Below, in pieces: positions 41,359 to 64,000 of a stretch of DNA of 64,000 nucleotides (the first letter of the stretch is position 1; each line of letters begins with the position of its first letter). The stretch is from Clostridia bacterium (GTDB lineage Bacteria; Bacillota; Limnochordia; DTU080; RSA5). A program made the translations under genes and the position numbers. The DNA lies in NCBI GenBank assembly GCA_002919235.1, contig PKEX01000029.1, positions 48,583 through 112,582 on the forward strand, in the 5' to 3' direction. Under the pieces are notes generated by a model that saw only the letters and a program-made list of their open reading frames with translations, was not told the DNA's origin and searched no databases.

Positions 41359-43071
41359 TCACATGGCCTCCGGCGCCTCGATGCCCAGGAGGTAAAGCCC
41401 GTTCTTGATCACCTGCTTCACGGCGGCCACCAGGGCGAGCCTGGCCCGGGCGTTGGGGCTGCCCACGATGCGGTGCGCATGGTAAAAGCTGTTGAAGTCG
41501 CGGCACAAATCCAGGAGATAGCGGGCGATTTCCGAGGGCTCCCGCTCCTCGGCCGCTCTTTGGACCGCGTCGGGGTACTGGGCCAGCGCCTTGGCCAGCT
41601 GGAATTCCTCTTCGCCGGCGAGATCGCCCCGGCCGACGGAAAACGCTCCCGCCGGTGCGACGCCCTCCTCGACGCCGCGCCGGAGCACGCTGGCCGCCCG
41701 GGCGTGAGTGTACTGGACGTACGGCCCGGTGTCTCCTTCGAAGTTGAGCGCGGTCTCCCAGTCGAAGACCACGTCTTTGATGCGGTTGTGAGCCAGGTCG
41801 TTAAAGATGACGGCACCGACGCCCACCGCCTCGGCGACGCGATCCTTCTCCTCCAGCTCCGGGTTGCGCTCCTCGATGATGGCCCGCACCCTGGCCACGG
41901 CCTGGTCCAGGAGCTCCTCCAGAAAAATCACGTTCCCCTTCCGGGTGGAGAACGCCTCGTCGCCGAAGCGCACGTGCCCGAAGGCGATGTGCTCGCACGC
42001 CTCGACCCACGGGTAGCCCATCCGCTTCAGCACGCCGAAGACCTGCGCGAAGTGAAGCTGCTGCGGGGCTCCCACCACGTAGAACATATGGTCAAAGCGG
42101 TAGGTCTCATACCGGTGGACGGCGGCCGCGAGGTCCCGGGTGGCATAGAGCGTCGCCCCGTCCTTCTTCTTGATGAGGCACGGCGGCATGCCTTCCAGCT
42201 CCACCACCAGCGCGCCCTCGCTCTCTTTGAGCAGTCCCTTAGCCTCCAGCTCGGCGACGGTCCGCTCAATCGCTTCATTATAGGCGCTCTCGCCCAGGTA
42301 GCTGTCGAAGTGAACGCCCAGGCGGCGGTACGTCCGTTCAAATTCCTCCAGGGAAAGGTCGCGAAACTCCTGCCAGAGGCGGGTCTCCTCCACGCCCCCG
42401 TCCTCCAGCGCCTTGAACGCCGCCCGCGCCTCGTCCTCCAGGGACGGGTCGTTCTCGGCCTCCTGGTGAAAGCGCACGTAGAGGTCGAGCAGCTCCCGGA
42501 TGGGCTCGGCCTCAAGGCGCGCCCGGTCGCCCCAGCGGCGGTACGCCACGATCAGCTTGCCGAACTGGGTGCCCCAGTCGCCGAGGTGGTTGATCCGCAC
42601 CGTCTTGAACCCCAGGCTTTCGAAGATCCGGGCCAGGGAGTGGCCGATGATGGTCGAGCGCAAGTGCCCCACGTGGAACGGCTTGGCGATGTTGGGCGAC
42701 GAGAAATCCAGGACCACCGTCTTGCCGTTTCCGACGTCCGACTTGCCGTAGTCGTCGCCGCGAGCCAGGACCGCTTCCACCACCCGCCGGCTGCTCTCGT
42801 CGCGGTTCAAGAAGATGTTGACGTAGGCCTTCACCACCTCGACCCGCTCGATCAGCTCCGTCGGGCCGATGCGCTGGCCCAGCTCCTCCGCGATGCGGTC
42901 GGGCGCCTTCCGGAGGACCCGCGCCAGCTGGAAGCAGGGGAAAGCGTAGTCTCCCAGCTCCCTGCCGGGCGGGATCTCGATCACCTCCCGCACGTCAAAG
43001 CCTTGGACTCCCAGCGCGGCGAGAGCCTCTTCTACCTTGGCTGCCACGTGGTCGAGAAGGACGTTTGCCAT
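41359..43071 (-). CDS. argS: arginine--tRNA ligase
   Basis: 570 aa from the internal ATG (MANVLLDHVAAKVEEAL...), RBS GGAAAGGTGG. HIGH-type motif (PNIAKPFHVGHLRST) and the C-terminal DALR domain. The track's 147-aa N-terminal extension is rejected. Confidence 0.95.
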   Translation of the reverse strand: MANVLLDHVAAKVEEALAALGVQGFDVREVIEIPPGRELGDYAFPCFQLARVLRKAPDRIAEELGQRIGPTELIERVEVVKAYVNIFLNRDESSRRVVEAVLARGDDYGKSDVGNGKTVVLDFSSPNIAKPFHVGHLRSTIIGHSLARIFESLGFKTVRINHLGDWGTQFGKLIVAYRRWGDRARLEAEPIRELLDLYVRFHQEAENDPSLEDEARAAFKALEDGGVEETRLWQEFRDLSLEEFERTYRRLGVHFDSYLGESAYNEAIERTVAELEAKGLLKESEGALVVELEGMPPCLIKKKDGATLYATRDLAAAVHRYETYRFDHMFYVVGAPQQLHFAQVFGVLKRMGYPWVEACEHIAFGHVRFGDEAFSTRKGNVIFLEELLDQAVARVRAIIEERNPELEEKDRVAEAVGVGAVIFNDLAHNRIKDVVFDWETALNFEGDTGPYVQYTHARAASVLRRGVEEGVAPAGAFSVGRGDLAGEEEFQLAKALAQYPDAVQRAAEEREPSEIARYLLDLCRDFNSFYHAHRIVGSPNARARLALVAAVKQVIKNGLYLLGIEAPEAM

Positions 43072-43139
43072 GTCGATGAACCACCTTTCCTGCAGAAAAA
43101 GCGCCCGCCCCCGGGCGCGGGAGCACGTGCAGACGGTTC

Positions 43140-43514
43140 TCAGCCGGCCACCCACGCCTGCCGGTCGGCGGGATACAGGGCGATAGAGCTTCGCCCGCAG
43201 CCGTCGCCGCAGAAGCGGACGACGACGCCCCCGTCCTCGTGGACGATTCCCTCGACGTGCCGCATGTGGATGATGATGCGCACGCCGTTGGCGAAGAGCA
43301 GTCCCACCTGCTGCGGCACCACGCCGAAGCGCCTGGCCGCGTCGGCGTTGCATGCCTTGGGGCGGTCCACCTGTACCAGCCGCGAGCGGAAGCGGACAAA
43401 GGCGCCCCTGCACTCCAGGTCGACGCTGGCCTCGCTGCCCTCCCTCTGCTCGAGGTCCGTCAGGAATTCGGGCCAGGCCAGCTGCACACGCCATCCCCCT
43501 TTGTACACCCACAT
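43140..43514 (-). CDS. small hypothetical protein (position consistent with DUF1934/YwiB-like gene preceding argS)
   Basis: 124 aa. Its ATG lies 3 nt after the beta-clamp paralog stop. The family call rests on synteny only; sequence similarity is not convincing. Confidence 0.4.
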   Translation of the reverse strand: MWVYKGGWRVQLAWPEFLTDLEQREGSEASVDLECRGAFVRFRSRLVQVDRPKACNADAARRFGVVPQQVGLLFANGVRIIIHMRHVEGIVHEDGGVVVRFCGDGCGRSSIALYPADRQAWVAG

Positions 43515-43516
43515 GG

Positions 43517-44662
43517 CTACACCGCCTCCGATTCCGAAACCGACTGGCGCAAAGGCATGAGGATGGTGCGAAACGCGACGCTCTCGTCGGCCGGAGCCAG
43601 CGCGACCGGGGCCAAAGGCTCGGAGAGGTAGAGCGCTACCTGCTCCACAGGCTGGGCCCGCAGCGCGCTGGTGAGCCTCTTGGCATCCAGCCAGACCCTC
43701 CTTCGGGGATGATAGGCCGAGAGCGGGATGACGGTCTGCGCCTCTCCTAGCTCTTGCTCGGCGGTGAAAAGGTGCAGGCGGTCGCCGTCCACCGTCAGGC
43801 AGAGACTCCTGCGGGACGCGTCATCCGCGATGCTGGAGACCTGGCGGACCGCTTCCAGCAGCCGGTCCCGGTCCACCTCCACCCTCACCCCGGAAAGAGG
43901 GCCCGTAAAGCGGGAAAGATCAGGGTATTGGATGTCGAGCCGGCGGATGGCCCACGCCACGTCGCCGGACGCGATATGCACCGCCCTCGGGCCCCAGGAG
44001 ACCGCTGCCCGGTCGCCCCCGAACGCCTGGAGCGCCTTGGCGAACGTGTTCAGCGCCGACGTGGGCAGGACCGCCTGGAGCGCGGCGCCCTCCGGCGCGC
44101 CCTCGACCCGGTCCGCGGGCAGGCGATAGTGCGCCAGTTGGTAGCTGTCGGTGGCCGCCATCTCCAGCCCGCCTGCGCCCGCCGCCACCAGCACCCCCGC
44201 GAAGGGCGAAAGCTCTTCCGAGTCCACGGCGCAGAAGGTCGTGCGCCCGATGAGGTCGATGAGGTGCCCGGCTTCCACGTGGAGATCGGCCCGCCCGGGA
44301 GGCGCCAGCCGGGGAAAGTCGCCGGCGTCCAGGGTCTGCAGGCGGAAGGCCGACGGGCCCGACGTCAGGCGGAGCGATTCGCCCGTGCCGCTGCTGGAGA
44401 GGACGACGTCCCCGCCGGGCAGCGTCGAGACGATGCTGGCCAGCGTCCGCGCGGCGACCGCGACGGTGCCCGCGGCGTGCACCTGGGCCGGGAGCACGAT
44501 CTCCGCCGTGCTTTGGAGATCCGTCGCGCGCAGCGTGACGCGGCCCGGTTCCGCCTCGACGACGACGGCGCTGACGATCGGCGCCACCGGCCGGCGGGGC
44601 GCCACGCGGCCGACGATCTGAAGCGCCTTGGCCAACCGGTGCTGGTCGATCAGTAGCTGCAC
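43517..44662 (-). CDS. DNA polymerase III beta-subunit (sliding clamp) paralog
   Basis: 381 aa from GTG 44662, with strong RBS GAAAGGAG 10 nt upstream. VQLLIDQHRLAKALQIVGRVAP...LRATDLQSTAE...FRLQTLDAGDFP aligns position-by-position with E. coli DnaN domain I. The track's 195-aa N-terminal extension is rejected. Confidence 0.75.
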   Translation of the reverse strand: MQLLIDQHRLAKALQIVGRVAPRRPVAPIVSAVVVEAEPGRVTLRATDLQSTAEIVLPAQVHAAGTVAVAARTLASIVSTLPGGDVVLSSSGTGESLRLTSGPSAFRLQTLDAGDFPRLAPPGRADLHVEAGHLIDLIGRTTFCAVDSEELSPFAGVLVAAGAGGLEMAATDSYQLAHYRLPADRVEGAPEGAALQAVLPTSALNTFAKALQAFGGDRAAVSWGPRAVHIASGDVAWAIRRLDIQYPDLSRFTGPLSGVRVEVDRDRLLEAVRQVSSIADDASRRSLCLTVDGDRLHLFTAEQELGEAQTVIPLSAYHPRRRVWLDAKRLTSALRAQPVEQVALYLSEPLAPVALAPADESVAFRTILMPLRQSVSESEAV

Positions 44663-44882
44663 GGACCCTGGGCTCCTTTCTCCCTTGCCATTCATCATAT
44701 CACAGGCCTCTTGGGCCGCGCCACACCGGGGTTGCCCGTCCCTCGCCCCGGAGCCTGCACCGGGCCGCCGTTGTACGGGGGCCTGCCGCTGTGGTACGCT
44801 TTTCTTGCACCTGGGCGAGCGGCGCCTTGCGAGATCCGCAGGCGGCGGCATCGCGCTGGTGCTCAGGGGAGGGTTTGGCGTG

Positions 44883-45410
44883 ATGCAGTCCATCGCCCAG
44901 TATCTGCGAGACCGGCTCGATCCCGGGCAGTACCAGCTGCTGCAAAAGGTGAGCCGCGGCTTTACCCGGCCGCTGTTCGCCCTGGATCCTGAGACCGGCC
45001 GGTTCGAGTGCGCCGCCGAGCTGGACGACGAGGAGGTGGAGGATCCCTCCGTCCTCGACGCCCTCTGTGTCGCCTGCGAGCTGCTGGAGGCGTCCGGCGT
45101 CTCCTTCGACCCGCAGGACCCGGCGCTGGAGCCGTCGGCATCCTCCGGGACGGTGGAGCTCACTTTCGACTTTCCCGATGAGGATGAAGACGCGCTCGTG
45201 CGGTTCAAGGCGATGCTGGCCGAAAACGCCTCGGCCGATGCAGGCATTCATGCGGATTACCAGAAATATCCCGGGGGCGTCCAGGCCCGGATCCGCCTGG
45301 CCTACTCCAGCGACTTCGACTACCAGAGGAAAAAAGATCTCATCGATTTTGTGCTCCAGGTCGCAAAGCGGCGGGCCAAAGACGATCCCCTCTCCGGCAG
45401 CCGGTTGTAG
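44883..45410 (+). CDS. acidic hypothetical protein
   Basis: 175 aa from the internal ATG with RBS GGGGAGGG 9 nt upstream. Asp/Glu-rich centre, no recognisable family. Lies 31 nt upstream of the CNNM gene. Confidence 0.5.
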   Translation: MQSIAQYLRDRLDPGQYQLLQKVSRGFTRPLFALDPETGRFECAAELDDEEVEDPSVLDALCVACELLEASGVSFDPQDPALEPSASSGTVELTFDFPDEDEDALVRFKAMLAENASADAGIHADYQKYPGGVQARIRLAYSSDFDYQRKKDLIDFVLQVAKRRAKDDPLSGSRL

Positions 45411-47758: not shown

Positions 47759-48064
47759 ACAAACCTCCTTGTCCGATTAAAAAGGCTCCCCGTCCCGGTC
47801 AAGGGACGAGGAGCCTCGCGGTGCCACCCTTGTTGGCAGGCGCGCCGTTGCCCGGCCGCGCCCTGCCCACCTCGATGCGCCTCGATAACGGGAGGCGTCC
47901 GGAAAAGGCCTACTGGGCCAGGACTCTCCTGCCGTTCGGACCCCCGGCTTGCGGGCCCACTTCCCCGTGGCTGCGCCGCCGGCTCGCACCGCCCGCCGGC
48001 TCTCTTCAGGCCGCCCGCCAGGGTACTCCCCCGCGCATCGCCTGTGCTCGGCTATCGTATATGT
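47759..48064 (-). promoter_or_regulatory. T-box riboswitch leader (predicted tRNA-Trp responsive) for trpS
   Basis: Conserved T-box sequence AACAAGGGTGGCACCGCGAGG (minus strand, ~47815-47835) immediately 5' of and overlapping the terminator. The leader is ~305 nt, typical for T-box leaders. The specifier loop was not mapped. Confidence 0.75.
47777..47815 (-). terminator. T-box leader terminator (attenuator) upstream of trpS
   Basis: Minus-strand RNA: GGCUCCUCGUCCC-UUGACC-GGGACGGGGAGCC (13-bp stem), followed by UUUUUAAUC. Its 5' arm overlaps the T-box sequence. Confidence 0.7.
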
Positions 48065-48737: not shown

Positions 48738-50249
48738 TCATCCGGCGGAGGTGACCGGCGCCGGCGGCCCGATGAGGGACCGGAACGTGTCGCCGTCCAG
48801 CTTTTCCCGCTCCAGCAGCAGGAGCGCCGCCTCGTGAATCCGGTCGCGGTGCGCTTCGATCTGCTGGCGCGCGAAGGCCTCCTGTTCCTTCACGATGGCT
48901 TGCATTTCGGCGTGCAGCGCCTCACTGGGCAGCACTTCCATGTCCACCACCCCCAGCCGCGACATGCCGGCGGCCACCAGCTGCTGGGCCAAGGTCATGG
49001 CCTGGCGGATGTCTCCGGCACAGCCGGTGCTGCGGCTGCCGAAGAACACCTCCTCGGCGCAGGCACCCGCCACGCAGACCGCGATCTGGTCGAGCAGGTC
49101 CTGCCGGGTGTGAAGGTACGGGTCGTCCTCCGGCGCTTGGCGCATGTAACCCAGGGCTTTCCCCCTCGAGGTGACGGTGACGGACGAGACCGATCCCGGC
49201 CGCACCAGCTCGCTGATGAAGGCGTGACCCGCTTCGTGGTGCGCGATGCGCGCCTGCTCTTCGGGGCGGGGCTTGCGCTCGAGCCGCTCGCCCATCATCA
49301 CCTTTTCGATGGCTTCCTTGAAATCTTCGCGGCGGATCTCGCTTCTGCCCGCTCGCAGCGCGTGAATGGCGGCCTCGTTCACGGCGCTCTCGATCTGCGC
49401 GCCCGAAAAGCCGTACATCTCCCGGGCCAGTTCCTCCAGGTCCACGTCGGCGGCCAAGGGCCGGTTCCGGGTGTGGATCCGCAGGATGTGCAGGCGTCCC
49501 TCCCGGTCCGGCATCTCCACGTGGACCGTACGGTCGAAGCGGCCCGGACGGAGCAGCGCCGGGTCCAGGAGGTCCGGCCGGTTGGTGGCCGCCATCACCA
49601 GCACCCGGACGCCGTCATCTTCCGTCAGCCCGTCCATCTGCACCAGGAGTTCGTTGAGGGTCTGGTCGTACTCCATGTGGCTGGCGCTGCGGCCTCGCTT
49701 GGCCCCCAGCACCTCGATCTCGTCGATGAAGATCACGGCGCAGGACTTCCCTTCCTTCTGCGCCGCGGCGCGGGCCTTCTGGAACAGGCGGCGCACCCGC
49801 TGCGCGCCCACGCCGGCGTACACTTCCACAAACTCCGAGCCGCTGGCGGCCACGAACGCGGCGCCGGCGTAGCTGGCCGCCGCCTTCGCCATCAGCGTCT
49901 TGCCGTTTCCCGGCGGGCCCGCCAGCAGGATCCCCTTGAGCGGCCGGATCCCCAGGCGCTTGGCAGCCTCGCTCTCCTTTATGAACTGAAGCGCCTCGAG
50001 AAGCTCCCTCTTGGCCACCTCCTGTCCCCCGATATCTTCGAAGCGGACTTTGGGGACGGAGCGCGCGCTGACGGCGAAACCGGGACCGGCCGGACCGCGC
50101 GCGAGCCCCTTGCTCTCCCAGGCGTACCAGAAAAAGAGGAGAAGGCCGCCCAACAGGAGGAACGGGGTGACGTCCACGCCCCAGAGGGCCAGGAGGACCA
50201 GCATGCCCGCGGCCGAGCCCAGCACCACTTCCTTCACCATTCCGTCCAC
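48738..50249 (-). CDS. FtsH-like ATP-dependent zinc metalloprotease lacking the extracytoplasmic domain
   Basis: 503 aa. Two closely spaced N-terminal TM helices, an AAA+ module (GPPGNGKT, Walker B DEID, SRH), and an M41 peptidase with HEAGH. About 100 aa shorter than canonical FtsH. Confidence 0.85.
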   Translation of the reverse strand: MDGMVKEVVLGSAAGMLVLLALWGVDVTPFLLLGGLLLFFWYAWESKGLARGPAGPGFAVSARSVPKVRFEDIGGQEVAKRELLEALQFIKESEAAKRLGIRPLKGILLAGPPGNGKTLMAKAAASYAGAAFVAASGSEFVEVYAGVGAQRVRRLFQKARAAAQKEGKSCAVIFIDEIEVLGAKRGRSASHMEYDQTLNELLVQMDGLTEDDGVRVLVMAATNRPDLLDPALLRPGRFDRTVHVEMPDREGRLHILRIHTRNRPLAADVDLEELAREMYGFSGAQIESAVNEAAIHALRAGRSEIRREDFKEAIEKVMMGERLERKPRPEEQARIAHHEAGHAFISELVRPGSVSSVTVTSRGKALGYMRQAPEDDPYLHTRQDLLDQIAVCVAGACAEEVFFGSRSTGCAGDIRQAMTLAQQLVAAGMSRLGVVDMEVLPSEALHAEMQAIVKEQEAFARQQIEAHRDRIHEAALLLLEREKLDGDTFRSLIGPPAPVTSAG

Positions 50250-50788
50250 CCCTTCGAAGCGAAAGCCGCCTCCAGGAGCGCGATCCGGGGAATCACCCGC
50301 ACCAGCTCCGCCCCTTCCTCACGCAGGTGGACGAAGAGGTGCTCGTCGCCGACCGCAACCCGGTACTCGAGGCCTTCCTCGTCCCGCAGGGCCTCGTCGA
50401 TTTCCCGGGCCATGGCCGCGAAGCGGCCCGTGGCGGCCGCCTCGTACAGGGTGAAGTGGATCCGGTGATACGCAGCCTCCAGGCGAGGGCTGGGATCATC
50501 GACGATGACGATGCCCCCGAGCCGCGCGCCGAGGCGCGCCTTGGCCACCGCTTCGAGCCCCGGATACACCTCTTCTACCCGGGCGTCCCGGGCGAGGACT
50601 GCCCGGACTTCCACCCGGCCGTCCCGCCCCGTTCCGATTTCGACCGCCGCGACGCCCGGCAGGGCGGCCGCGTCCGAGGAAAGAGGATCGAGGATGCGCG
50701 CGGCGACATACGCCTGGCGCAGGCCCACGCCCAAGGCGACGACGGCGGCAAACGTGGCGACGATGACGGGAATCTTCAGCTGCCGCAT
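50234..50788 (-). CDS. hypothetical membrane-anchored protein (N-terminal TM helix, soluble C-terminal domain)
   Basis: 184 aa. Its 3' end overlaps the start of the FtsH-like gene by 16 nt. No recognisable family. Confidence 0.5.
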   Translation of the reverse strand: MRQLKIPVIVATFAAVVALGVGLRQAYVAARILDPLSSDAAALPGVAAVEIGTGRDGRVEVRAVLARDARVEEVYPGLEAVAKARLGARLGGIVIVDDPSPRLEAAYHRIHFTLYEAAATGRFAAMAREIDEALRDEEGLEYRVAVGDEHLFVHLREEGAELVRVIPRIALLEAAFASKGWTEW

Positions 50789-53082: not shown

Positions 53083-54444
53083 TCATGAGACGACCTCTCC
53101 TACCAGATCGTAGTCGTGCGCCTCGACGATGCGCACGTCCACCATTTGCCCCGGATCGACCCATTTGTTCGCGATGTAGGTCACACCGTCGATCTCGGGC
53201 GCGTGACGCTGGCCGCGCGCCACCAAGACCAGGTCGCTTTCGGACGACGGCCCGTCCACCAGCATGGGGAACACCTTCCCCACCAGCGAGCGGTTGATCG
53301 CGCGCGAGATGGCGCGCTGTGCCTCCATCGCCGCCTCCCGCCGCTGGAGCTTGACCTCCTCGGGAAGCTGGCCGTCCAGTTCGGCCGCGGGCGTCCCCTC
53401 TTCCCGGGAGTACGTAAAGACGCCTACATGGTCAAAGCGGACCTGCTGGATGAAGGACAGCAGCTCCTCGAAATCCTCGTCGGTCTCTCCTGGAAAGCCG
53501 ACGATGAACGAGCTCCTCAAGGTGACCCCGGGGATCCGGGCGCGGATCTTTTCGATGAGCCTGTCGATCAAGGCCCTGTCTCCCTTGCGCCGCATCCGCC
53601 GCAAGACGCGGTCGGACGCGTGCTGCAGCGGGAGCTCGATGTACTTGCAGATCTTCGGCTCGTCCGCGATGACGTCGATAATCTCATCGCTCAAGTGGGT
53701 CGGATACGCGTAGAACACCCGCAGCCAGTCGATCCCCTCGACCTTTGCCAGGCGCCGCAAGAGCTCGGCCAGCTTGTACTCGCCGTAAAGGTCCCGTCCG
53801 TACCAGGTGGTGTCCTGGGCGACGAGAACCACCTCCCGCACGCCCTCGTCCGCCAGCCGCTTCACCTCGTCGACGATGGACTCCATGGGACGGCTGCGGT
53901 GGCGGCCGCGCACCGCCGGGATGATGCAGAAGGCGCAAGGGTGGTTGCACCCTTCGGAAATCTTCACGAAGGCCGTGTGCGGAAGGGTCGCCCGGACGCG
54001 CGGCGCGGTGTGGTCGTAGATGTAGCTGGGCGTCCCTACCTGGACCAGCTTTTCTCCTCCCAGCACTCTCTGGACCACGGCGGGGATCTGGTCCACCTCG
54101 CCGGTGCCGATCACCGCGTCGATCTCGGGCATGGCCTCCATGAGCTGTTCCTTATAGCGCGTCCCCATGCAGCCGGCGACGATCAGCGCCTTACATTTCC
54201 CTTCCTCTTTATAACGTGCCATCTCTAGGATGGTGTCGACCGACTCCTCTTTCGCCGGTCCGATGAACGTGCAGGTATTGACCACGAGGACGTCAGCCTC
54301 GCTGGGATCGTGGGTCAGCTCACACCCCGCCCGCCCCAGCAGGCCCATCATCACCTCGGAGTCGATCAGGTTCTTGGCGCATCCCAGGGAGACCATCCCC
54401 ACCTTAATCGGTGAAGCGGAGAGAGAGCCGACTGGCGTGGACAT
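53083..54444 (-). CDS. rimO: ribosomal protein S12 methylthiotransferase RimO
   Basis: UPF0004/MTTase N-domain, radical-SAM CxxxCxxC (CNHPCAFC) and TRAM domain. Preferred start is ATG 54444 with GAGGTGG 6 nt upstream; the track starts at GTG 54453. Confidence 0.9.
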   Translation of the reverse strand: MSTPVGSLSASPIKVGMVSLGCAKNLIDSEVMMGLLGRAGCELTHDPSEADVLVVNTCTFIGPAKEESVDTILEMARYKEEGKCKALIVAGCMGTRYKEQLMEAMPEIDAVIGTGEVDQIPAVVQRVLGGEKLVQVGTPSYIYDHTAPRVRATLPHTAFVKISEGCNHPCAFCIIPAVRGRHRSRPMESIVDEVKRLADEGVREVVLVAQDTTWYGRDLYGEYKLAELLRRLAKVEGIDWLRVFYAYPTHLSDEIIDVIADEPKICKYIELPLQHASDRVLRRMRRKGDRALIDRLIEKIRARIPGVTLRSSFIVGFPGETDEDFEELLSFIQQVRFDHVGVFTYSREEGTPAAELDGQLPEEVKLQRREAAMEAQRAISRAINRSLVGKVFPMLVDGPSSESDLVLVARGQRHAPEIDGVTYIANKWVDPGQMVDVRIVEAHDYDLVGEVVS

Positions 54445-54508
54445 AAAGGCCACCTCTATTCGTAGAGATGTACCGGGCGCCCGCGGCGCGCGAAAACCTC
54501 AATGTTTC

Positions 54509-54517
54509 ACTATAACA
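54509..54517 (-). promoter_or_regulatory. extended -10 element TGTTATAGT, candidate rimO promoter
   Basis: Read on the minus strand ~55 nt upstream of rimO. No good -35. Confidence 0.3.
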
Positions 54518-54668
54518 CATGGACTGCCGGCGAACCAGAAGCGGCGCCGCACCGATCGACATTTTCCCCGGCCAGGGGAGGATTCCAATCCCCGGCAGCG
54601 AATGAGGCCATGTATCGGTTGCACCCGTTTGACCTGGGCAATTCGGGCTTTTGCGCCATCTGCTGGCG

Positions 54669-54697
54669 TTGACAGCCATCAGGGCAGACATTATAAT
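54669..54697 (+). promoter_or_regulatory. consensus sigma-A promoter for the nuo operon: -35 TTGACA (54669-54674), 17-nt spacer, -10 TATAAT (54692-54697)
   Basis: Perfect hexamers and spacing. Predicts a TSS near 54704 and a ~134-nt leader before nuoA. Confidence 0.65.
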
Positions 54698-54730
54698 TAG
54701 CCCTGGCGTCAAAGGGCAAAAGTCCTGCTC

Positions 54731-54768
54731 CGGCCTGACAATTGTCCCCATCGGCCGTTTTTTTGGGG
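54731..54768 (+). promoter_or_regulatory. structured nuo leader: terminator-like hairpin CGGCC-N17-GGCCG followed by U7, an alternative CCCCA...UGGGG pairing that buries the U-run, and a perfect palindrome GACAATTGTC (54737-54746)
   Basis: Seen in sequence ~70-105 nt upstream of the nuoA ATG. The two hairpins are mutually exclusive, which suggests an attenuation-type switch. Confidence 0.35.
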
Positions 54769-54837
54769 CAGGATTGTGAAAACGGTAATAATCCGGGAAG
54801 GGCGCCGTGCGCCCACGAGGCACGAGGAGGCGGCTGC

Positions 54838-55194
54838 ATGCTTGACCAGTACACCGGTGTGGGAGTCTTCCTGGCGGTGGGTGCCCTCTTTGTCGCCGTC
54901 ACGCTGCTGGCCGGAAAGCTCCTGCGGCCGCACAATCCCTATCCGGAGAAGCTCGCGACGTACGAATGCGGCGAGATCCCCGTCGGCGAGGGTCAGATCA
55001 AGTTCCACATCCGCTACTACATCTTTTCTCTCATTTTCGTGGTCTTTGACGTGGAGACCGTCTTTCTGTATCCCTGGGCGGTCGTCTTCGAGGAGATGGG
55101 CCTGTTCGGCTTCGTCGTCATGATGCTCTTCATCGGCACGTTGGTGGAGGGGCTCGTCTACGCGTGGAAGAAGGGGGCATTGCGATGGGTTTGA
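54838..55194 (+). CDS. nuoA: NADH-quinone oxidoreductase subunit A
   Basis: 118 aa from ATG 54838 with RBS GAGGAGG 7 nt upstream. The NuoA pattern [20 protein letters not shown] and three TM helices. Confidence 0.93.
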
Positions 55195-55679
55195 TCGACC
55201 ACGAGGAGCTGCCGGGCATCGTCACGGTTCCCCTGCGCCGCCTCGTCAACTGGAGCCGTAAGTCGTCCCTCTGGTACCTCCTCTTCGGGATCGCTTGCTG
55301 CGCGATCGAGATGATGGCGACCGGAGCGTCCCGGTACGACTTCGACCGGTTCGGGATGATCTTCCGGGCCTCTCCCCGGCAGTCGGACCTGATGATCGTC
55401 CCCGGCACCATCAACGAGAAGATTGCGGACCGGGTCAAGGTGCTCTACGACCAGATGGCCGAGCCGCGCTGGGTGATCGCCATGGGCGGCTGCGCCATCA
55501 ACGGCGGGCCCTACCACGGCGAGTACAACATCGTCGACGGCGTGGACCGGGTGATCCCGGTGGACGTGTACGTGCCCGGATGTCCTCCCAGGCCGGAGGC
55601 CCTGATGCACGGCGTGCTGCTGCTCCAGGAGAAAATCGCCCGCGAGGGGCTGGAGTCCAGGGCCGCCGCCCGGGCGTGA
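55185..55679 (+). CDS. nuoB: NADH-quinone oxidoreductase subunit B
   Basis: The N2 Fe-S motifs ([13 protein letters not shown]...G..Y, VPGCPP). Internal ATG. Overlaps the nuoA end by 10 nt. Confidence 0.93.
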
Positions 55680-55793
55680 CCGCGAGAAGGCGTGAATCTT
55701 TGGCAGCATACGGCGGGCTTCTCCACGAAAGCCCGCCGCTACACTGTGTGCCGGCGGGGCCGGCCGGTGTAGCTAGGGGGTGCACTTTCGCCG

Positions 55794-56372
55794 ATGTCAG
55801 AGGAACGCAACACCGAGCACATGGAGGAACAGGGCGCGCCCAAGGCTGCTGCGCCCTCTCCCGCGCAGCAGCAGCTGGTGGACGATCTTCGGGCGGCGCT
55901 GCCCGGCCTGGAGCCGGCGGTGCGCAGCGACGGCTGGGTCGAGCTGAACGTCCCCCGGGAGCGATGGCTGGACGTCGCCCAGACGCTGCGGGACGACCCG
56001 CGCCTCGGGTTTGACTACCTGAGCATGGTCTCGGCGGTAGACTACATGGAAAAGGGCTTTCAAGTGGTCTACCACCTCCTGGCTCTCTTGGCCAATAAGA
56101 AGCTGGTGGTCAAGGTGGATGCCCCCGAGAGGGACAACCCGGTGGTGCCCTCCGTGGTCTCCATTTGGCCCACGGCCAATTTTCACGAGCGCGAAGCGTG
56201 GGACTTGATGGGGGTCCGCTTCGAAGGGCATCCCAACCTCAAGCGCATCTTGATGCGGGAGGACTGGGTGGGGCACCCCTTGCGCAAGGATTACGTGGAT
56301 GAGCGGCCCCCGCGGGAGCGGGTCACGCGGGAGACGTACTACGAAGACCTGCGCCGCAGCAGAGAACGGTGA
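55794..56372 (+). CDS. nuoC: NADH-quinone oxidoreductase subunit C
   Basis: 192 aa, NuoC/30-kDa subunit core (ANFHEREAWDLMGVRFEGHPNL). The start is uncertain (ATG 55794 or 55821). Confidence 0.88.
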   Translation: MSEERNTEHMEEQGAPKAAAPSPAQQQLVDDLRAALPGLEPAVRSDGWVELNVPRERWLDVAQTLRDDPRLGFDYLSMVSAVDYMEKGFQVVYHLLALLANKKLVVKVDAPERDNPVVPSVVSIWPTANFHEREAWDLMGVRFEGHPNLKRILMREDWVGHPLRKDYVDERPPRERVTRETYYEDLRRSRER

Positions 56373-56392
56373 CCAGGAGGTGGAGGTCGACG

Positions 56393-57520
56393 ATGGCTGA
56401 GATTGCCACCCGCGACGAGCAGCTCGGCGTCCGTTCGGAAGAGCTTTTCGTCAACATGGGCCCTCAACACCCCAGCACGCACGGGGTGCTGCGCGTCCTC
56501 ACCCGCCTCGACGGCGAGAAGGTGCTCGAGGCCGAAGCGGACATCGGCTACCTGCACCGGTGCTTCGAGAAGATCGCCGAGAAGCGCAAGCTCTTCCAGG
56601 TGATCCCCTATACCGACCGCACCGACTACCTTGCCGCCATCACCAACGAACTGGTCTTCGTGATGGCCGTCGAAAAGCTCTTGGAGATCGAGGTGCCGCC
56701 GAGGGCCCAGTACATCCGGTTTATCATGTCCGAGCTTCAGAGGATCGCGAGCCACCTCCTCTGGTTCGGCACCTTCGCCATGGACCTGGGCGCCACCACC
56801 GCCTTCCTCTACGCGTGGCGTGAACGGGAGCGCCTCCTCGACATTTTCGAGGCGGTGACCGGAGCGCGCATGCTCTACAACTACTTGAGGATCGGCGGCG
56901 TCCGCAACGACGTATTCGACGGGTTCGAGGCCACGGTGGAAAAGTACTTGCGGGACTTTGAGAAGCGCCTGAAAGAGTACCATGACCTGGTGACCGGAAA
57001 CCGCATCTTCGAGGTGCGCACGCAAGGTGTAGGCGTCGTCACCGCGGAGGAGGCCATCGCCTACGGGGCCAGCGGCCCGGTCCTCAGGGCCAGCGGCGTC
57101 AAGTACGACGTCCGCAAGGCCGATCCGTACCTGGTCTACGACAAGTACGATTTCGAAGTGCCCACCGGGCAAAACGGCGACTGCTACGACCGCTACATCG
57201 TCCGCATGAAGGAGATGGAGGAGAGCGTCAAACTGGTCCGCCACGGGCTGGCCGACATGCCGGCGGGCGACGTGATGGGCAAGGTTCCCCGGCGCATCAA
57301 GCTGGAGGGTGACACGTACGCCCGCATCGAGTCGCCCCGCGGGGAAGTCGCCTGCTACCTGGTGGGAGACGGCTCCGATCAAGCGTACCGGCTGAGCTGG
57401 CGCTCCCCGTGCTTCGTGCACCTGCAGCTCCTGAACATCATGGCCAGGGGCGGCCTGGTCGCCGACCTGATCGCCAGCATCGGGAGCATCGACATCGTCA
57501 TGGGCGAGGTGGACCGGTAG
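56393..57520 (+). CDS. nuoD: NADH-quinone oxidoreductase subunit D
   Basis: Internal ATG with RBS GGAGGTGGAGG. The NuoD/49-kDa motifs MGPQHPSTHGVLR and ESPRGE. Confidence 0.93.
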   Translation: MAEIATRDEQLGVRSEELFVNMGPQHPSTHGVLRVLTRLDGEKVLEAEADIGYLHRCFEKIAEKRKLFQVIPYTDRTDYLAAITNELVFVMAVEKLLEIEVPPRAQYIRFIMSELQRIASHLLWFGTFAMDLGATTAFLYAWRERERLLDIFEAVTGARMLYNYLRIGGVRNDVFDGFEATVEKYLRDFEKRLKEYHDLVTGNRIFEVRTQGVGVVTAEEAIAYGASGPVLRASGVKYDVRKADPYLVYDKYDFEVPTGQNGDCYDRYIVRMKEMEESVKLVRHGLADMPAGDVMGKVPRRIKLEGDTYARIESPRGEVACYLVGDGSDQAYRLSWRSPCFVHLQLLNIMARGGLVADLIASIGSIDIVMGEVDR

Positions 57521-58531
57521 ATGGACTTCTTCTCCGCCATGCACAGCGGTCTGGTGAGCGCGGGCTGGCCTCTCTGGCTGGCGAACCTGGTGCCGCCGCT
57601 GGTCAAAGCGCTGATCCTCCTCCTCTTCATCCTGCTGAACTGCACCTTCCTCATCTGGATGGAGCGGAAAGTGGCCGGCCACATGCAGCGCCGGATGGGG
57701 CCGATGCGGCTCGGTCCCCACGGGATCATCCAGACCATCGCCGACGTGGTGAAGCTCATCGCGAAGGAGGACGTCATCCCGGCGGGCGTCGACCGCTGGG
57801 TGTTCGTGCTCGCGCCCATCGTCGCTTTCGCCCCGGCTTTCGCCGTCTTTATGGTGATCCCGTTTGGGCCCAATCTCATCGCTCAGGATCTCAACATCGC
57901 GCTGATCTTTATCGCCGCCCTCACCTCCTTCGTCGTCATCTCCTTCCTGATGGCGGGCTGGAGTTCCAATAATAAGTGGTCGCTCTTGGGTGCCATGCGG
58001 GCCAGCGCGCAGCTCATCAGCTACGAGGTGCCGCTGGTCATTTCGGTGGCCTCCGTTGCCCTGCTGGCGGGCTCGCTCAGCCTGCAGGACATCGTCAGGG
58101 CGCAGTCGCAGAGCTTCTGGTACATCCTCGTCCAGCCCATCGGCTTTCTCGTGTTCCTGACGGCCTCTTTGGCCGAACTCAACCGGTCGCCGTTCGACAT
58201 GTCCGAAGCCGAGCAAGAGCTGGTGGCTGGGTACAACACCGAGTACAGCGGCATGCGCTGGGCCATCTTTTACCTGACCGAATACGCGAACTTGATCACG
58301 TTCGCCGCGATGGCCTCCACCCTCTTCTTCGGGGGTTGGAGCGGGCCCGGCTTGCCGCCGTTCGTCTGGTTCATGATCAAGGTGTACTTCTTCATCTTCC
58401 TGGTGATGTGGATCCGGTGGACGCTGCCCCGGGTCCGTATCGACCAGCTGATGGACATCGGCTGGAAGGGGCTTCTTCCCCTCTCCCTGGTGAACCTGGC
58501 GTTTACCGGGATCTACGTCCTCTTGCGCTGA
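57521..58531 (+). CDS. nuoH: NADH-quinone oxidoreductase subunit H
   Basis: 336 aa, 8 TM helices, with ERKVAGHMQRRMGP and SPFDMSEAE motifs. It follows nuoD directly, so there is no nuoE/F/G. Confidence 0.93.
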   Translation: MDFFSAMHSGLVSAGWPLWLANLVPPLVKALILLLFILLNCTFLIWMERKVAGHMQRRMGPMRLGPHGIIQTIADVVKLIAKEDVIPAGVDRWVFVLAPIVAFAPAFAVFMVIPFGPNLIAQDLNIALIFIAALTSFVVISFLMAGWSSNNKWSLLGAMRASAQLISYEVPLVISVASVALLAGSLSLQDIVRAQSQSFWYILVQPIGFLVFLTASLAELNRSPFDMSEAEQELVAGYNTEYSGMRWAIFYLTEYANLITFAAMASTLFFGGWSGPGLPPFVWFMIKVYFFIFLVMWIRWTLPRVRIDQLMDIGWKGLLPLSLVNLAFTGIYVLLR

Positions 58532-58604
58532 CGGGGGCGTCTTGCGCCGCCGACGTCCGCGCGGCCCGATCCCACCAGGAGAGCTGACAAGGAGCTGATC
58601 GCTC

Positions 58605-59099
58605 ATGGGCAGATTCTTGGCCGAGATCTACAAGGCACTGAAGAGCGCGGCGCTGGGTTTGAAGGTGACGGTGAAAAACCTCTTTTCACCTGCCATCACC
58701 CTCCAGTACCCGGACGAGCGCCTGGATCTTCCCGTGGGATTCCGGGGGATCCCCGTGCTCCTCAGCGACGCCGAGGGGAATCTCAAGTGCACCTCGTGCG
58801 AGCTTTGCGCCCGCGCGTGCCCGGTGCAGTGCATCGAGATCCAGTCGCACAGGGAAGAGGGACGGAAGCTCAAGGTGCTGGACGTCTACAACCTGGACGC
58901 CACGTGGTGCATGTACTGCGGCCTCTGCGTCGAGGCGTGCCCCTTCGACGCCCTGGCGATGTCGGACCAGTTTGAGCTGGCCGATTACGATCTGACCAAC
59001 CTGGTCTTCGACCGCGACCGCCTCGCCGAGATCGGCCGGCGCCAGGTGACGGAGACCATCAACTTCGGCATCAAGACGGGAGGAGCGGCGACGCGATGA
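58605..59099 (+). CDS. nuoI: NADH-quinone oxidoreductase subunit I (2x[4Fe-4S] ferredoxin)
   Basis: 164 aa with two CxxCxxCxxxCP motifs. Confidence 0.92.
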   Translation: MGRFLAEIYKALKSAALGLKVTVKNLFSPAITLQYPDERLDLPVGFRGIPVLLSDAEGNLKCTSCELCARACPVQCIEIQSHREEGRKLKVLDVYNLDATWCMYCGLCVEACPFDALAMSDQFELADYDLTNLVFDRDRLAEIGRRQVTETINFGIKTGGAATR

Positions 59100-59635
59100 C
59101 GGTGACGGATTGGGTGTTCCTCGCCATCGCCCTGGTGACGCTCTTCAGCGCGTACCGGGTCGTCACGACGCACAAGATCATGCACGCGGCCCTCTGGCTC
59201 GGGCTGACGTTCGTCGGGGTCGCCGGGATCTTCCTCCTGTTGGGTGCCGATTTCCTGGCCGCGGCCCAGGTCTTGGTGTACGTCGGTGCCATCACTACCA
59301 TCATCATCTTCGGCATCATGCTGTCGTCGGTGGAAGACCTCCGCGGGGAGTCGTTTGACAACGTGTGGAAGCGGCTCTCTTCCCGGCTCACTTCGAGCCG
59401 GCGGGGAATTTGGCCGCTGCTGGCAGCAGTGGGCCTTGCCGCAGCCATGGTGATCGTGGTCAGCCGGGGGCAGTGGCCGGCCTCGCCCCACGCCCCGGCC
59501 CTGGACACGCCGCGGCTCTTGGGCGAAGCCCTGTTCACCCGCTTTGTCATCCCCTTTGAGGCGGCGTCGATTGTCCTCCTGGTGGCCCTGATCGGCGCGA
59601 TCGCCTTGGCGCTGAAGGAGGAGAGGACCGAATGA
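59096..59635 (+). CDS. nuoJ: NADH-quinone oxidoreductase subunit J
   Basis: 179 aa membrane subunit. Overlaps the nuoI stop. Confidence 0.85.
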   Translation: MTVTDWVFLAIALVTLFSAYRVVTTHKIMHAALWLGLTFVGVAGIFLLLGADFLAAAQVLVYVGAITTIIIFGIMLSSVEDLRGESFDNVWKRLSSRLTSSRRGIWPLLAAVGLAAAMVIVVSRGQWPASPHAPALDTPRLLGEALFTRFVIPFEAASIVLLVALIGAIALALKEERTE

Positions 59636-59940
59636 CGCTTTCGCTGCCGGTGGTGTTAGGGGTCGGGGCGATCATGTTCGGCCTGGGCGTCTACGGCGCG
59701 CTGACCCAGACCAACGCTATCCGGGTGCTGATGTGCATCGAGCTGGTGCTGAACAGCGTCAACATCAACCTGGTCGCCTTCTCCCGCTTCACCGCGGACC
59801 AGGCCCTGGGGCAGATCTTCGCTGTGTTCGTCATGACGGTGGCCGCCGCGGAAGCCGCCGTGGGCCTTGCGATCATCTTGATGATCGCCCGCCGGAAGAC
59901 ACAGATCGACATCGACCAGATCAACCTGTTGAAATGGTAG
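59632..59940 (+). CDS. nuoK: NADH-quinone oxidoreductase subunit K
   Basis: 102 aa, three TM helices, with a conserved Glu in TM2. Confidence 0.88.
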   Translation: MTLSLPVVLGVGAIMFGLGVYGALTQTNAIRVLMCIELVLNSVNINLVAFSRFTADQALGQIFAVFVMTVAAAEAAVGLAIILMIARRKTQIDIDQINLLKW

Positions 59941-59950
59941 GTGGCAGTAG

Positions 59951-61876: not shown

Positions 61877-61973
61877 TGCCCGCCGAGGCCTTCCGGCCGA
61901 AACCTGGTCAACGCTGGTCCTTCGCCGGGCTCGCCCTGGTGACGACAATGGCGAAACAGGGGGTTAAGAACGA

Positions 61974-63500: not shown

Positions 63501-63502
63501 AC

Positions 63503-64000
63503 GTGCAGCAGTACTCCCTGCTCCTCCCGGAGATCATCCTAGCGGGGCTGGGACTGCTCCTGCTCGCGTTGGATCTGACCGTCTCCTCCAAGAGGACGTT
63601 GGCGGTGGCGGGGGTCATCGGGACCCTCGCCACCTTGGCGGCGGTGGTCGCCAACTTCGGGGCGCCGGCCACTGAGATCTGGAGCGGCACCATCCGGGTG
63701 GATGCCTTTGCCCAGTACTTCAAGCTGATCTTCGCCGTCATCTTGGGGCTGGTCTTCCTGTTCTCCGGCGAGTACCTGGAGCGGCGCGAGGTGAAGGTGG
63801 GCGAGTTTTACATCCTGGTCACCTTCGCCACGCTGGGCGCGTTCCTGATGGCGTCGTCGCTGGAGCTCATCACCATTTACATCGGGCTCGAGCTGATGAC
63901 CATCTCGTCGTACGTCCTCGCCGGCATGCTGCGCAACGACGCGCGGTCCAGCGAAGCGTCCATCAAATTCTTCCTGATGGGCGCGCTGACGTCCGGCGTG
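63503..64000 (+). CDS. nuoN: NADH-quinone oxidoreductase subunit N (partial, 3' end beyond window)
   Basis: GTG start after RBS GGGAGGGATG. N-terminal TM helices of the NuoN family. Runs off the window end. Confidence 0.8.
   Translation, partial: MQQYSLLLPEIILAGLGLLLLALDLTVSSKRTLAVAGVIGTLATLAAVVANFGAPATEIWSGTIRVDAFAQYFKLIFAVILGLVFLFSGEYLERREVKVGEFYILVTFATLGAFLMASSLELITIYIGLELMTISSYVLAGMLRNDARSSEASIKFFLMGALTSGV

What the first reader, a model, noticed from the sequence alone, without database searches (positions are those of the whole stretch)
43140..44662. Divergent beta sliding-clamp (DnaN) paralog translationally coupled to a small unknown protein and argS
A 381-aa ORF aligns along its N-terminal domain with E. 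coli beta clamp and has the expected three-domain length. It is not at an origin locus (no dnaA/recF), so it is presumably a second copy. Its stop is 3 nt before a 124-aa ORF in the position of DUF1934/YwiB, which in turn precedes argS. An accessory clamp co-expressed with an aminoacyl-tRNA synthetase is unusual. It could serve a specialised polymerase, or be sporulation or stress specific.
Basis: partly seen in the sequence, partly recalled or inferred. Interest (0 to 1): 0.5.

Follow-up and report, generated by a model that had tools for sequence, protein, structure and literature searches.

The report
Second, divergent sliding-clamp gene beside argS
This uncultured Limnochordia bacterium carries a well-conserved second copy of the DNA sliding-clamp gene with an altered partner-binding pocket, paired with a small unknown protein; its position next to the arginyl-tRNA synthetase gene looks like neighbourhood rather than shared function.

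Summary
The 381-aa ORF (43517..44662, minus strand) is a real, full-length bacterial beta-clamp homologue. It matches TIGR00663 at 141.7 bits (cut-off 137.65). Its AlphaFold2 model has pLDDT 91.5 and TM 0.83-0.90 to solved clamps. It is a second copy. A related MAG (GCA_041686855.1) carries both this paralog and a canonical dnaA-dnaN-recF-gyrBA locus. For the window's own species, a canonical dnaN (P0249) occurs in the same metagenome, at the same G+C and the same prevalence.

The family is narrow: about 25 clusters, 3 GTDB species, and no cultured Limnochordia. It is under purifying selection. Its peptide-binding cleft carries family-invariant changes (R176Q, L155F, Y323R, N320D in E. coli numbering), and it ends in a conserved acidic ESEA[V/I] tail.

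In four relatives argS has its own T-box leader, and a TATAAT-type promoter is read by eye in two (one of them without a detected T-box). Here only a terminator-like remnant is left.

Verdict: a lineage-specific accessory clamp operon of modest interest. The argS link is incidental.

The parts
43517..44662 (-). DnaN-like beta sliding-clamp paralog, 381 aa, GTG start, stop TAG at 43519..43517
   Evidence: PF00712 at 84 bits, PF02767 at 34.5 bits, PF02768 at 19.8 bits. TIGR00663 at 141.7 bits vs cut-off 137.65. AlphaFold2 pLDDT 91.5, pTM 0.88. Foldseek TM 0.83-0.90 to solved beta clamps. The same 381-aa gene call appears in 114 collection blocks.
44694..44702 (-). Conserved extended -10 promoter element TGATATGAT (TGnTATGAT), 31 nt upstream of the GTG start. 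The RBS AAAGGAG lies between them.
   Evidence: The same TG-n-TAT(G/C)AT element sits at the same distance from the start in L007, L008, L009, L010/L012 and L014. This was read directly from the sequences; the consensus scan did not flag it.
43140..43487 (-). Small partner gene, 115 aa (conserved GTG start; an alternative ATG at 43514 would give 124 aa). Orphan family with a YojF-like fold.
43096..43118 (-). Terminator-like hairpin GCGCCCG-GGGG-CGGGCGC followed by TTTTT, 24 nt before the argS ATG. Probably the remnant of a deleted argS T-box terminator.
   Evidence: Terminator scan and sequence. Its 3' half and T-run match the T-box terminators of L009 and L010. No T-box was detected here at E<=10.
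41359..43071 (-). argS, arginyl-tRNA synthetase, 570 aa (neighbour, not part of the module)
   Evidence: PF03485, PF00750 and PF05746. The start at MANVLL with RBS GGAAAGGTGG agrees with the gene calls.
44883..45410 (+). Divergently transcribed 175-aa gene of unknown function that travels with the paralog. Possible third member of the module.
   Evidence: Present next to the paralog in the window/L001, L007, L009, L010/L012 and L014, and absent in L008. No Pfam, PADLOC or PDB hit. Conserved motifs are listed.

Best explanation
This is a lineage-restricted accessory beta sliding clamp (a 'DnaN2') of a subset of uncultured Limnochordia. It is encoded in a two-gene operon with a small YojF-fold protein and is driven by its own conserved extended -10 promoter.

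Shown:
- It has the complete three-domain clamp fold.
- It coexists with a canonical dnaN at the dnaA locus.
- It is under purifying selection about as strong as that on ArgS.
- Its protein-binding cleft carries family-invariant replacements of residues that are conserved in canonical clamps.
- It has a conserved acidic C-terminal tail.

Inferred:
- It still forms a ring on DNA. The DNA-contact residues R24 and R73 and the dimer-interface residues F106 and L108 are kept.
- It recruits a different, dedicated partner instead of competing for the standard clamp-binding motifs of the replicase. Candidate partners are the co-transcribed 115-aa protein, the divergent 175-aa protein, or a polymerase or repair factor encoded elsewhere.
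- The adjacency to argS is inherited gene order, not shared function. In this species a deletion removed the argS promoter and T-box, so argS is probably now transcribed by read-through of a residual hairpin.
For: Fold and family.

Second copy:
- Direct evidence in MAG GCA_041686855.1.
- For the window's species, canonical P0249 lies in an rpmH-rnpA-yidC-jag / dnaA-dnaN-S4-recF-remB-gyrBA locus.
- JGI metagenome 3300000489 holds both that locus (L017) and a contig 99.92% identical to the window (L037).
- G+C is 67.6 vs 67.2%. Prevalence is 117 vs 114 blocks and 94 vs 94 contigs.

Divergence:
- Paralogs score 24-79 bits against B. subtilis and E. coli DnaN. Canonical representatives mostly score about 140-245 bits, apart from a few that are themselves divergent.
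- TIGR00663 gives 142-148 bits for paralogs against 276-309 bits for the canonical copies.
- A paralog is 26-31% identical to the canonical clamp of its own lineage.

Constraint:
- Window vs L009: 83% aa identity, with 160 synonymous and 65 non-synonymous codon changes. ArgS gives 82%, 201 and 101.
- The paralogs of two lineages are 55-56% identical, while their canonical clamps are 41% identical.

Remodelled cleft (E. coli numbering to paralog residue; counts are out of the 23 family sequences):
- R176 to Q175 (23/23)
- L155 to F154 (23/23)
- R152 to L/V/I
- Y153/Y154 to S152/P153 (23/23)
- Y323 to R329 (20/23)
- N320 to D326 (22/23)
- V344 to L350 (23/23)
- R24, R73, F106, L108, P242 and R365 are kept.

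Other features:
- C-terminal ESEA[V/I] tail.
- Operon partner and spacing.
- Promoter.
- T-box leader before argS in four relatives. Promoter-like hexamers were read by eye in L009 and L010.
- Housekeeping context, with no defence or phage signal.
Against: - No experiment or complex prediction shows ring formation, clamp loading or any partner. The functional part is inference from residues and gene order.
- For the window's own species the two genes were not seen in one assembly. P0249 was found in GCA_017577405.1, and the paralog in GCA_017577385.1, GCA_017577665.2 and GCA_047459575.1.
- The direct case rests on a metagenomic bin, and binning errors are possible. The two contigs have G+C of 56.4% and 54.6%.
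- PF02768 falls below its Pfam cut-off.
- One lineage (L008) has the paralog without either small neighbour, so those proteins cannot be obligatory partners.
- Some basic residues that face DNA in canonical clamps are lost: R80 to A/S and K198 to A/S/G.
- The 'slower than the canonical clamp' comparison rests on a single pair of lineages.
Confidence: 0.62

Rival explanations
1. Redundant back-up replicative clamp, like Bacillus DnaN-2. It would bind the same partners as the canonical clamp and could support replication, with little specialised function.
For: Many Bacillus species carry a dnaN-2 that can take part in replication (PMC3290774, read). The fold, the TDxxxLA and YPD motifs, and the MPxR C-terminus are retained.
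Against: Identity to the canonical copy is only 26-31%, against about 40% for Bacillus DnaN-2. Key cleft residues, including the otherwise conserved R176, are replaced in all 23 family sequences. The strong, family-specific conservation exceeds that of the canonical clamp, which argues against a drifting spare.
Confidence: 0.13
2. Clamp-derived regulator or pseudo-clamp. It would not encircle DNA as a homodimer. Instead it would sequester a factor or form heterodimers with the canonical clamp, for example to modulate replication during sporulation or stationary phase.
For: Dimer-interface residues are changed (E. coli I272 to S/T, E304 to T/V), and several DNA-facing basic residues are lost (R80, K198). 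The acidic disordered tail could act as a docking or autoinhibitory element. The organism carries many sporulation genes nearby: SpoVT, SpoVS, SpoVA and GerA.
Against: R24, R73, F106 and L108 are kept. The monomer model superposes on ring-forming clamps at TM 0.83-0.90. The promoter is a housekeeping-type extended -10, not an obvious sporulation-sigma promoter. No test of oligomeric state was possible.
Confidence: 0.15
3. It is the only dnaN of the genome: the housekeeping gene, relocated and fast-evolving.
For: It passes the TIGR00663 equivalog cut-off, and NCBI names it DNA polymerase III subunit beta.
Against: A canonical dnaN with all three Pfam domains and a TIGR00663 score of 276-309 bits sits at the dnaA locus in the same MAG (relative lineage) and in the same metagenome (window species).
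Confidence: 0.02
4. Functional coupling with ArgS or translation: a clamp-like protein acting in tRNA or aminoacylation biology, co-regulated with argS.
For: Adjacency to argS is conserved in every locus seen. In the window only 68 nt with no recognisable promoter separate the small ORF from argS.
Against: Four relatives have a T-box leader between the small ORF and argS, and promoter-like hexamers are visible in L009 and L010. The window keeps a terminator-like hairpin there. The gene order trpS, corC, argS, cinA, recA, recX, rny is general housekeeping synteny.
Confidence: 0.03
5. Inhibitor-insensitive clamp, as with the GriR/MypR self-resistance clamps of actinomycetes, or a decoy against phage or toxin clamp binders.
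For: Second DnaN copies confer self-resistance to clamp-targeting peptides in actinomycete gene clusters (PMC10817943). The cleft, which such inhibitors target, is the remodelled part.
Against: No biosynthetic cluster, transposase or defence gene lies nearby. The locus is stable core synteny whose G+C tracks each host, from 49% to 68%. Phage clamps are no closer than 29% identity.
Confidence: 0.04

Closest known systems
Canonical bacterial beta sliding clamp DnaN (TIGR00663; PF00712/PF02767/PF02768), e.g. E. coli, B. subtilis 4TR6, mycobacterial 8DJ6
   Same: Same length and three-domain fold (TM 0.83-0.90). Shared motifs are ATD..(Q/R)LA, YPD and MP.R. The DNA-contact residues R24 and R73 are kept.
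   Different: Not at the dnaA-recF locus. Only 26-31% identical to the host's own DnaN. Roughly half the TIGR00663 score of the canonical copies. Family-invariant replacements in both subsites of the peptide-binding cleft. An extra acidic tail of 9-10 aa after MPLR.
Bacillus DnaN-2 (second clamp of the B. anthracis/cereus group)
   Same: A second chromosomal dnaN in a Bacillota organism, away from the origin, whose function is still unclear (PMC3290774).
   Different: Bacillus DnaN-2 is about 40% similar to DnaN-1 and can support replication. This family is far more divergent and has a remodelled cleft, a conserved tail and a conserved small partner gene. A direct sequence comparison with Bacillus DnaN-2 was not run.
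GriR/MypR self-resistance clamps in actinomycete biosynthetic gene clusters
   Same: An extra DnaN copy alongside the housekeeping one (PMC10817943).
   Different: Those lie in antibiotic gene clusters next to transposases. This one sits in conserved housekeeping synteny with no cluster.
B. subtilis YojF (PDB 1NJH; DUF1806 by my recollection), compared with the 115-aa partner
   Different: Only 14% identity. No Pfam model is matched by any of six family members at E<=10. The model's confidence is moderate (pLDDT 72). YojF itself has no established function.
DUF1934/YwiB
   Same: A small gene immediately upstream of argS in a Bacillota genome.
   Different: No HMM match at E<=1 or E<=10. The fold search points to YojF, not to a DUF1934 structure.

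Membership tests
Bacterial beta sliding clamp (DnaN) superfamily | Three tandem clamp domains recognised by HMMs (PF00712, PF02767, PF02768; full-length TIGR00663) | tested here: met
   PF00712 at 84 bits and PF02767 at 34.5 bits are above their cut-offs. PF02768 at 19.8 bits is below its cut-off of 27. Full-length TIGR00663 at 141.7 bits exceeds its cut-off of 137.65, covering residues 1-372.
Bacterial beta sliding clamp (DnaN) superfamily | Three-domain beta-clamp fold | tested here: met
   AlphaFold2 pLDDT 91.5, pTM 0.88. Foldseek E about 1e-32 and TM 0.83-0.90 to clamps from Mycobacterium, Caulobacter, Streptococcus, Bacillus and E. coli.
Housekeeping replicative DnaN (orthologue of E. coli/B. 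subtilis dnaN) | Encoded in the dnaA-dnaN-recF origin-proximal locus as the genome's clamp gene | tested here: not met
   The window has no dnaA or recF. A separate canonical dnaN occupies that locus.
Housekeeping replicative DnaN (orthologue of E. coli/B. subtilis dnaN) | Conserved peptide-binding cleft residues (E. coli L155, R176, R152, Y323, N320, V247) | tested here: not met
   All are replaced by family-specific residues: F154, Q175, L/V/I151, R329, D326 and F/Y252. T172, L177, P242, P363 and R365 are kept.
Housekeeping replicative DnaN (orthologue of E. coli/B. subtilis dnaN) | Head-to-tail ring homodimer loaded on DNA by the clamp loader | not testable with these tools
   Only a monomer model could be made. 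The interface residues F106 and L108 are kept, while I272 and E304 are changed.
DUF1934 / YwiB (PF09148), for the small ORF | Match to the family HMM | tested here: not met
   No Pfam hit at E<=1 for the window protein. None of six orthologues hits it at E<=10.
YojF family (DUF1806 by my recollection), for the small ORF | Match to the family HMM | tested here: not met
   No Pfam family of that kind was reported for any of six orthologues at E<=10. A profile search of PDB sequences does not find 1NJH.
YojF family (DUF1806 by my recollection), for the small ORF | YojF-type alpha+beta fold | tested here: inconclusive
T-box-regulated aminoacyl-tRNA synthetase gene (argS) | T-box leader (RF00230) between the promoter and the synthetase gene | tested here: not met
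   None is found upstream of argS in the window at E<=10. T-boxes are present in L007 (94.8 bits), L010 and L012 (86.3 bits) and L014 (75.2 bits). The window's trpS does have one (58.9 bits).
Known accessory clamps (Bacillus DnaN-2; GriR/MypR) | Sequence clustering with those paralog groups | not tested
Only literature descriptions were used.

The most novel reading that the evidence does not exclude
The paralog and its small neighbours may form an orthogonal clamp system: a second ring with a re-specified binding pocket that serves its own adaptor or enzyme. Candidates are the YojF-fold 115-aa protein and/or the 175-aa protein. Such a system would be insulated from the replisome's clamp-binding motifs, and it appears to be kept under tighter constraint than the replicative clamp itself. 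That would be a previously undescribed DNA-transaction pathway in spore-forming Limnochordia.
Probability: 0.2. Interest if true: 0.6.

Novelty: new variant of a known kind. Interest (0 to 1): 0.33.

Why it matters
Second beta clamps are known but poorly understood. Bacillus DnaN-2 has no clear role, and GriR-type copies are antibiotic self-resistance genes.

This family differs in three ways. Its changes concentrate in the partner-binding cleft. It has a conserved acidic tail. In the one pair of lineages compared, it is more conserved than the replicative clamp.

If the cleft has truly changed specificity, this would be a natural example of an insulated clamp-partner pair. That would be useful for understanding how clamp traffic is partitioned, and as a scaffold for orthogonal tethering.

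On the practical side, annotation pipelines currently label it 'DNA polymerase III subunit beta'. That label can mislead single-copy-marker counts and replication-origin inference in Limnochordia MAGs. The argS neighbourhood itself is ordinary.

Tried and rejected
- **Rfam on the window.** At gathering thresholds nothing was found. A relaxed search around the locus gave no T-box or other plausible RNA between the small ORF and argS.
- **Other scans.** ARAGORN found no tRNA. DnaA boxes are not enriched, with 4 matches against 2.5 expected. A weak GC-skew turn near 53 kb coincides with the start of the plus-strand nuo operon, with nothing there to suggest an origin.
- **LexA/Cheo box.** None is present in the paralog's upstream region in any of 7 loci.
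- **Defence and phage origin.** There are no PADLOC hits. Phage clamps are at most 29% identical.
- **Names of the nearest canonical hits.** The first two cluster look-ups returned only anonymous or Actinomycetota entries and were uninformative. Picking P0064 by composition and motif similarity then led to the Limnochorda-type canonical DnaN.
- **The 576-aa maximal ORF.** It is not on record as translated from the window. The NCBI 576-aa call (P0039) is an over-extended start in PITZ01. Its 'ATGATG' is in fact the -10 box.
- **Library availability.** The afdb50 fold library was not available.
- **Failed script.** An all-against-all phmmer run over the ~150 representative DnaN sequences, meant to give the background spread of pairwise bit scores, hit the 60-s limit and returned nothing. 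I reran only the paralog-versus-reference comparison.
- **GTDB genome scan.** It found only 3 species and did not return the window's own species. Absence from that scan is therefore weak evidence on its own.
- **One-assembly proof for the window's species.** I could not obtain this. The look-ups show the paralog and the canonical gene in different sibling MAGs.
- **Clamp-binding-like motifs.** The N-terminal QLAWPDFL of the small protein and the conserved P-[LI]-F of the 175-aa protein were considered as candidates. I do not rely on them. The first lies in a predicted structural helix and its Q is not conserved. The second is too short to be meaningful.
Full report
**What is at the coordinates**

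The window has 67% G+C. Three genes lie head to tail on the minus strand:
- a 381-aa ORF at 43517..44662, with a GTG start;
- a small ORF ending at 43140;
- argS at 41359..43071.

The 381-aa product matches the N-terminal and central beta-clamp Pfam domains above their cut-offs (84 and 34.5 bits). It matches the C-terminal domain below cut-off (19.8 vs 27 bits). It matches the full-length DnaN equivalog model TIGR00663 at 141.7 bits, just over the cut-off of 137.65.

Exactly this protein is called in 114 blocks of public assemblies, always in the same neighbourhood. NCBI names it 'DNA polymerase III subunit beta [Limnochordia bacterium]'. An AlphaFold2 model built on 32 sequences is confident (pLDDT 91.5, pTM 0.88). 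It superposes on solved bacterial clamps at TM 0.83-0.90. The core observation, a full-length divergent beta-clamp homologue away from any dnaA or recF, is therefore correct. A DnaN profile finds no other copy in the 64 kb.

**Is it a second copy?**

The family is small and sharply separated from other clamps.
- The 5.8-billion-protein search returned 25 clusters at 50% identity or more, then nothing until canonical DnaNs at 23-30%.
- An exhaustive HMMER scan of 1.84 billion representatives gave one other full-length family cluster, then canonical clamps at 135 bits or less.
- One of those canonical hits, P0064, looked compositionally and motif-wise closest. I used it as a query and recovered the Limnochorda-type canonical DnaN group, including L. 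pilosa (P0246) and P0249.

P0249 sits in a textbook origin locus: rpmH-rnpA-yidD-yidC-jag-gidB-parB-parA on one side and dnaA-dnaN-S4-recF-remB-gyrB-gyrA on the other. Several lines tie it to the window's species:
- It occurs in 117 blocks and 94 contigs, against 114 blocks and 94 contigs for the paralog.
- Its loci have 67.6% G+C, against 67.2% for the window.
- JGI metagenome 3300000489 contains both this locus (L017) and a contig 99.92% identical to the window (L037).

Direct evidence comes from a relative. MAG GCA_041686855.1 carries the paralog P0013 beside argS on contig JAWLDA010000003.1. It also carries a canonical dnaN (P0260) in a dnaA-dnaN-S4-recF-remB-gyrB-gyrA locus on contig JAWLDA010000013.1. 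The canonical proteins score 276-309 bits on TIGR00663, against 142-148 bits for the paralogs.

Two caveats remain. The direct case is a metagenomic bin. For the window's own species the two genes were seen in sibling assemblies rather than in one.

**How unusual is the protein?**

Family members score 24-79 bits against B. subtilis or E. coli DnaN. Most unrelated canonical clamps score about 140-245 bits, and a few representatives that are themselves divergent score lower.

The gene is not decaying.
- Between the window and L009 it is 83% identical, with 160 synonymous and 65 non-synonymous codon changes. ArgS gives 82%, 201 and 101.
- Between the window lineage and the JAWLDA01 lineage the paralogs are 55-56% identical. 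The canonical clamps are only 41% identical, and ArgS is 65%.

I aligned the family with E. coli, B. subtilis and M. tuberculosis DnaN and with eleven Limnochordia canonical clamps. The family-specific, mostly invariant changes concentrate in the protein-binding cleft (E. coli numbering; counts are out of the 23 family sequences):
- R176 to Q (23/23)
- L155 to F (23/23)
- R152 to L/V/I
- Y153/Y154 to S/P (23/23)
- Y323 to R (20/23)
- N320 to D (22/23)
- V344 to L (23/23)
- V247 to F/Y

Kept residues are T172, L177, P242, P363 and R365, the DNA contacts R24 and R73, and the interface residues F106 and L108. Some other basic or interface residues are lost: R80, K198, I272 and E304.

After the usual MP.R end the family carries 9-10 extra residues ending in ESEA[V/I]. 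This tail is disordered in the model.

My reading is a clamp that still rings DNA but has a re-specified partner site. That reading is inference.

**The small ORF**

The 124-aa ORF with its ATG 2 nt after the clamp's stop codon exists. However, orthologues are 115-119 aa and begin at the conserved MQLAW. In the window this is the GTG at 43487, preceded by AAGGGGGA. The spacer is 26-33 nt in all lineages, which indicates co-transcription with an independent RBS.

It is a real gene. Substitution frequencies of 0.47, 0.17 and 0.11 at codon positions 3, 1 and 2 give the coding signature.

**Regulation and the argS link**

All lineages share a TG-n-TAT(G/C)AT extended -10 element about 31 nt upstream of the clamp's start (window 44702..44694), followed by an AAAGGAG ribosome-binding site. 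There is no LexA/Cheo box.

Downstream of the small ORF, four relatives carry a T-box leader with its terminator directly in front of argS:
- L007, 94.8 bits
- L010 and L012, 86.3 bits
- L014, 75.2 bits

TATAAT-type promoter hexamers are visible by eye in L009 and L010. L009 has such a promoter-like sequence and a terminator but no detectable argS T-box.

The window has only 68 nt there. They contain a hairpin, GCGCCCG-GGGG-CGGGCGC followed by TTTTT, whose 3' half matches those T-box terminators. No T-box or promoter is present. The simplest history is a deletion of the argS promoter and T-box in this species. That would leave argS dependent on read-through from the clamp operon.

Co-expression with argS is therefore plausible in this species but is a derived accident, not a conserved design. 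L008 has the paralog directly followed by argS, with neither the small ORF nor the divergent 175-aa gene. Neither small protein can therefore be an obligatory partner.

**Distribution**

The GTDB species scan found the family in three species, at 76%, 55% and 52% identity. All 25 clusters come from MAGs or metagenomes. None has a UniRef or nr isolate source, whereas the canonical clamps of L. pilosa and Carboxydochorda subterranea do.

The window's canonical clamp is 71% identical to that of L. pilosa but only 41% to that of JAWLDA01. A vertically inherited paralog would therefore imply loss in L. pilosa. The alternative is transfer between lineages into the same locus. I could not resolve this.

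The locus G+C tracks each host, from 49% to 68%. The surroundings are core genes: trpS with a T-box, infC, an ftsH-like gene, corC, argS, a MazG-like gene, dCMP deaminase, cinA, recA, recX and rny. There is no defence or phage signal.

**Comparison with what is known**

Second clamps are already described. Many Bacillus species carry dnaN-2, about 40% similar to DnaN-1, dispensable, and able to support replication (PMC3290774). Actinomycete antibiotic clusters carry GriR/MypR self-resistance clamps (PMC10817943).

This family belongs to the same general kind but differs in several respects:
- its degree of divergence;
- the invariant remodelling of the cleft;
- the acidic tail;
- the conserved small-gene partners;
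- its constraint relative to the canonical clamp, measured in one pair of lineages.

I found no paper on it. I rate it a new variant of a known kind and of modest interest. What remains is a well-supported but functionally untested accessory clamp in an uncultured lineage.

Noticed in passing
window 47799..48047 (-): T-box leader upstream of trpS. It scores 58.9 bits (E 7e-11), well below Rfam's gathering score of 93, so the default scan missed it. Orthologous trpS T-boxes are in L009 5428-5683 and L014 6513-6812.
   Followed up: partly
window 43072..43139 (-), compared with L007 11563-12008, L009 10349-10596 and L010 3758-4128: argS has lost the T-box leader that four relatives have (L007, L010, L012, L014), together with the promoter-like sequence read by eye in L009 and L010. 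Only the terminator-like hairpin and the RBS remain. An essential synthetase would then depend on read-through from the upstream operon. RNAfold also pairs GAACCGUCU with the RBS region AGGUGGUUC.
   Followed up: partly
window 44883..45410 (+): Divergently transcribed 175-aa protein with no Pfam, PADLOC or PDB match. It accompanies the paralog in 5 of 6 lineages. Invariant features are P30-x-F32, C62-x-x-C65 (DALCVACELL), DFDYQRKKD and a C-terminal DPxxG(S/K)R(L/I).
   Followed up: partly
proteins P0158, P0140, P0120 and P0190: Other high-G+C DnaN-like representatives also score poorly against E. coli, B. subtilis and M. tuberculosis DnaN (about 70-120 bits) and have C-terminal extensions. This suggests further, unrelated divergent clamp paralog families in other lineages.
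   Followed up: no
window 43517..45247 (-); L024 (PITZ01000001.1): GenBank annotation of the sibling MAG calls the clamp gene as a 576-aa 'hypothetical protein' from an upstream ATG. That call runs across the promoter and overlaps the divergent gene, so it is an over-extended start. The conserved start gives 381 aa.
   Followed up: yes
window 48738..50249 (-) and 50234..50788 (-): An FtsH-like protein (AAA + peptidase M41, 503 aa) is preceded by a 184-aa ORF with no family match that overlaps its start by 16 nt. The pair is conserved in L001, L007, L008 and L009.
   Followed up: no
window 54000..64000: G+C drops to 63-64%, from 66-71% elsewhere, and GC skew turns slightly positive over the plus-strand nuo (NADH dehydrogenase) operon. 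No DnaA-box cluster is present.
   Followed up: partly
L015 15466..15538 (+): A tRNA gene lies just downstream of gyrA in the canonical origin locus. Most assemblies break this locus at about 5 kb, which may explain why MAGs often miss or mis-bin it.
   Followed up: no
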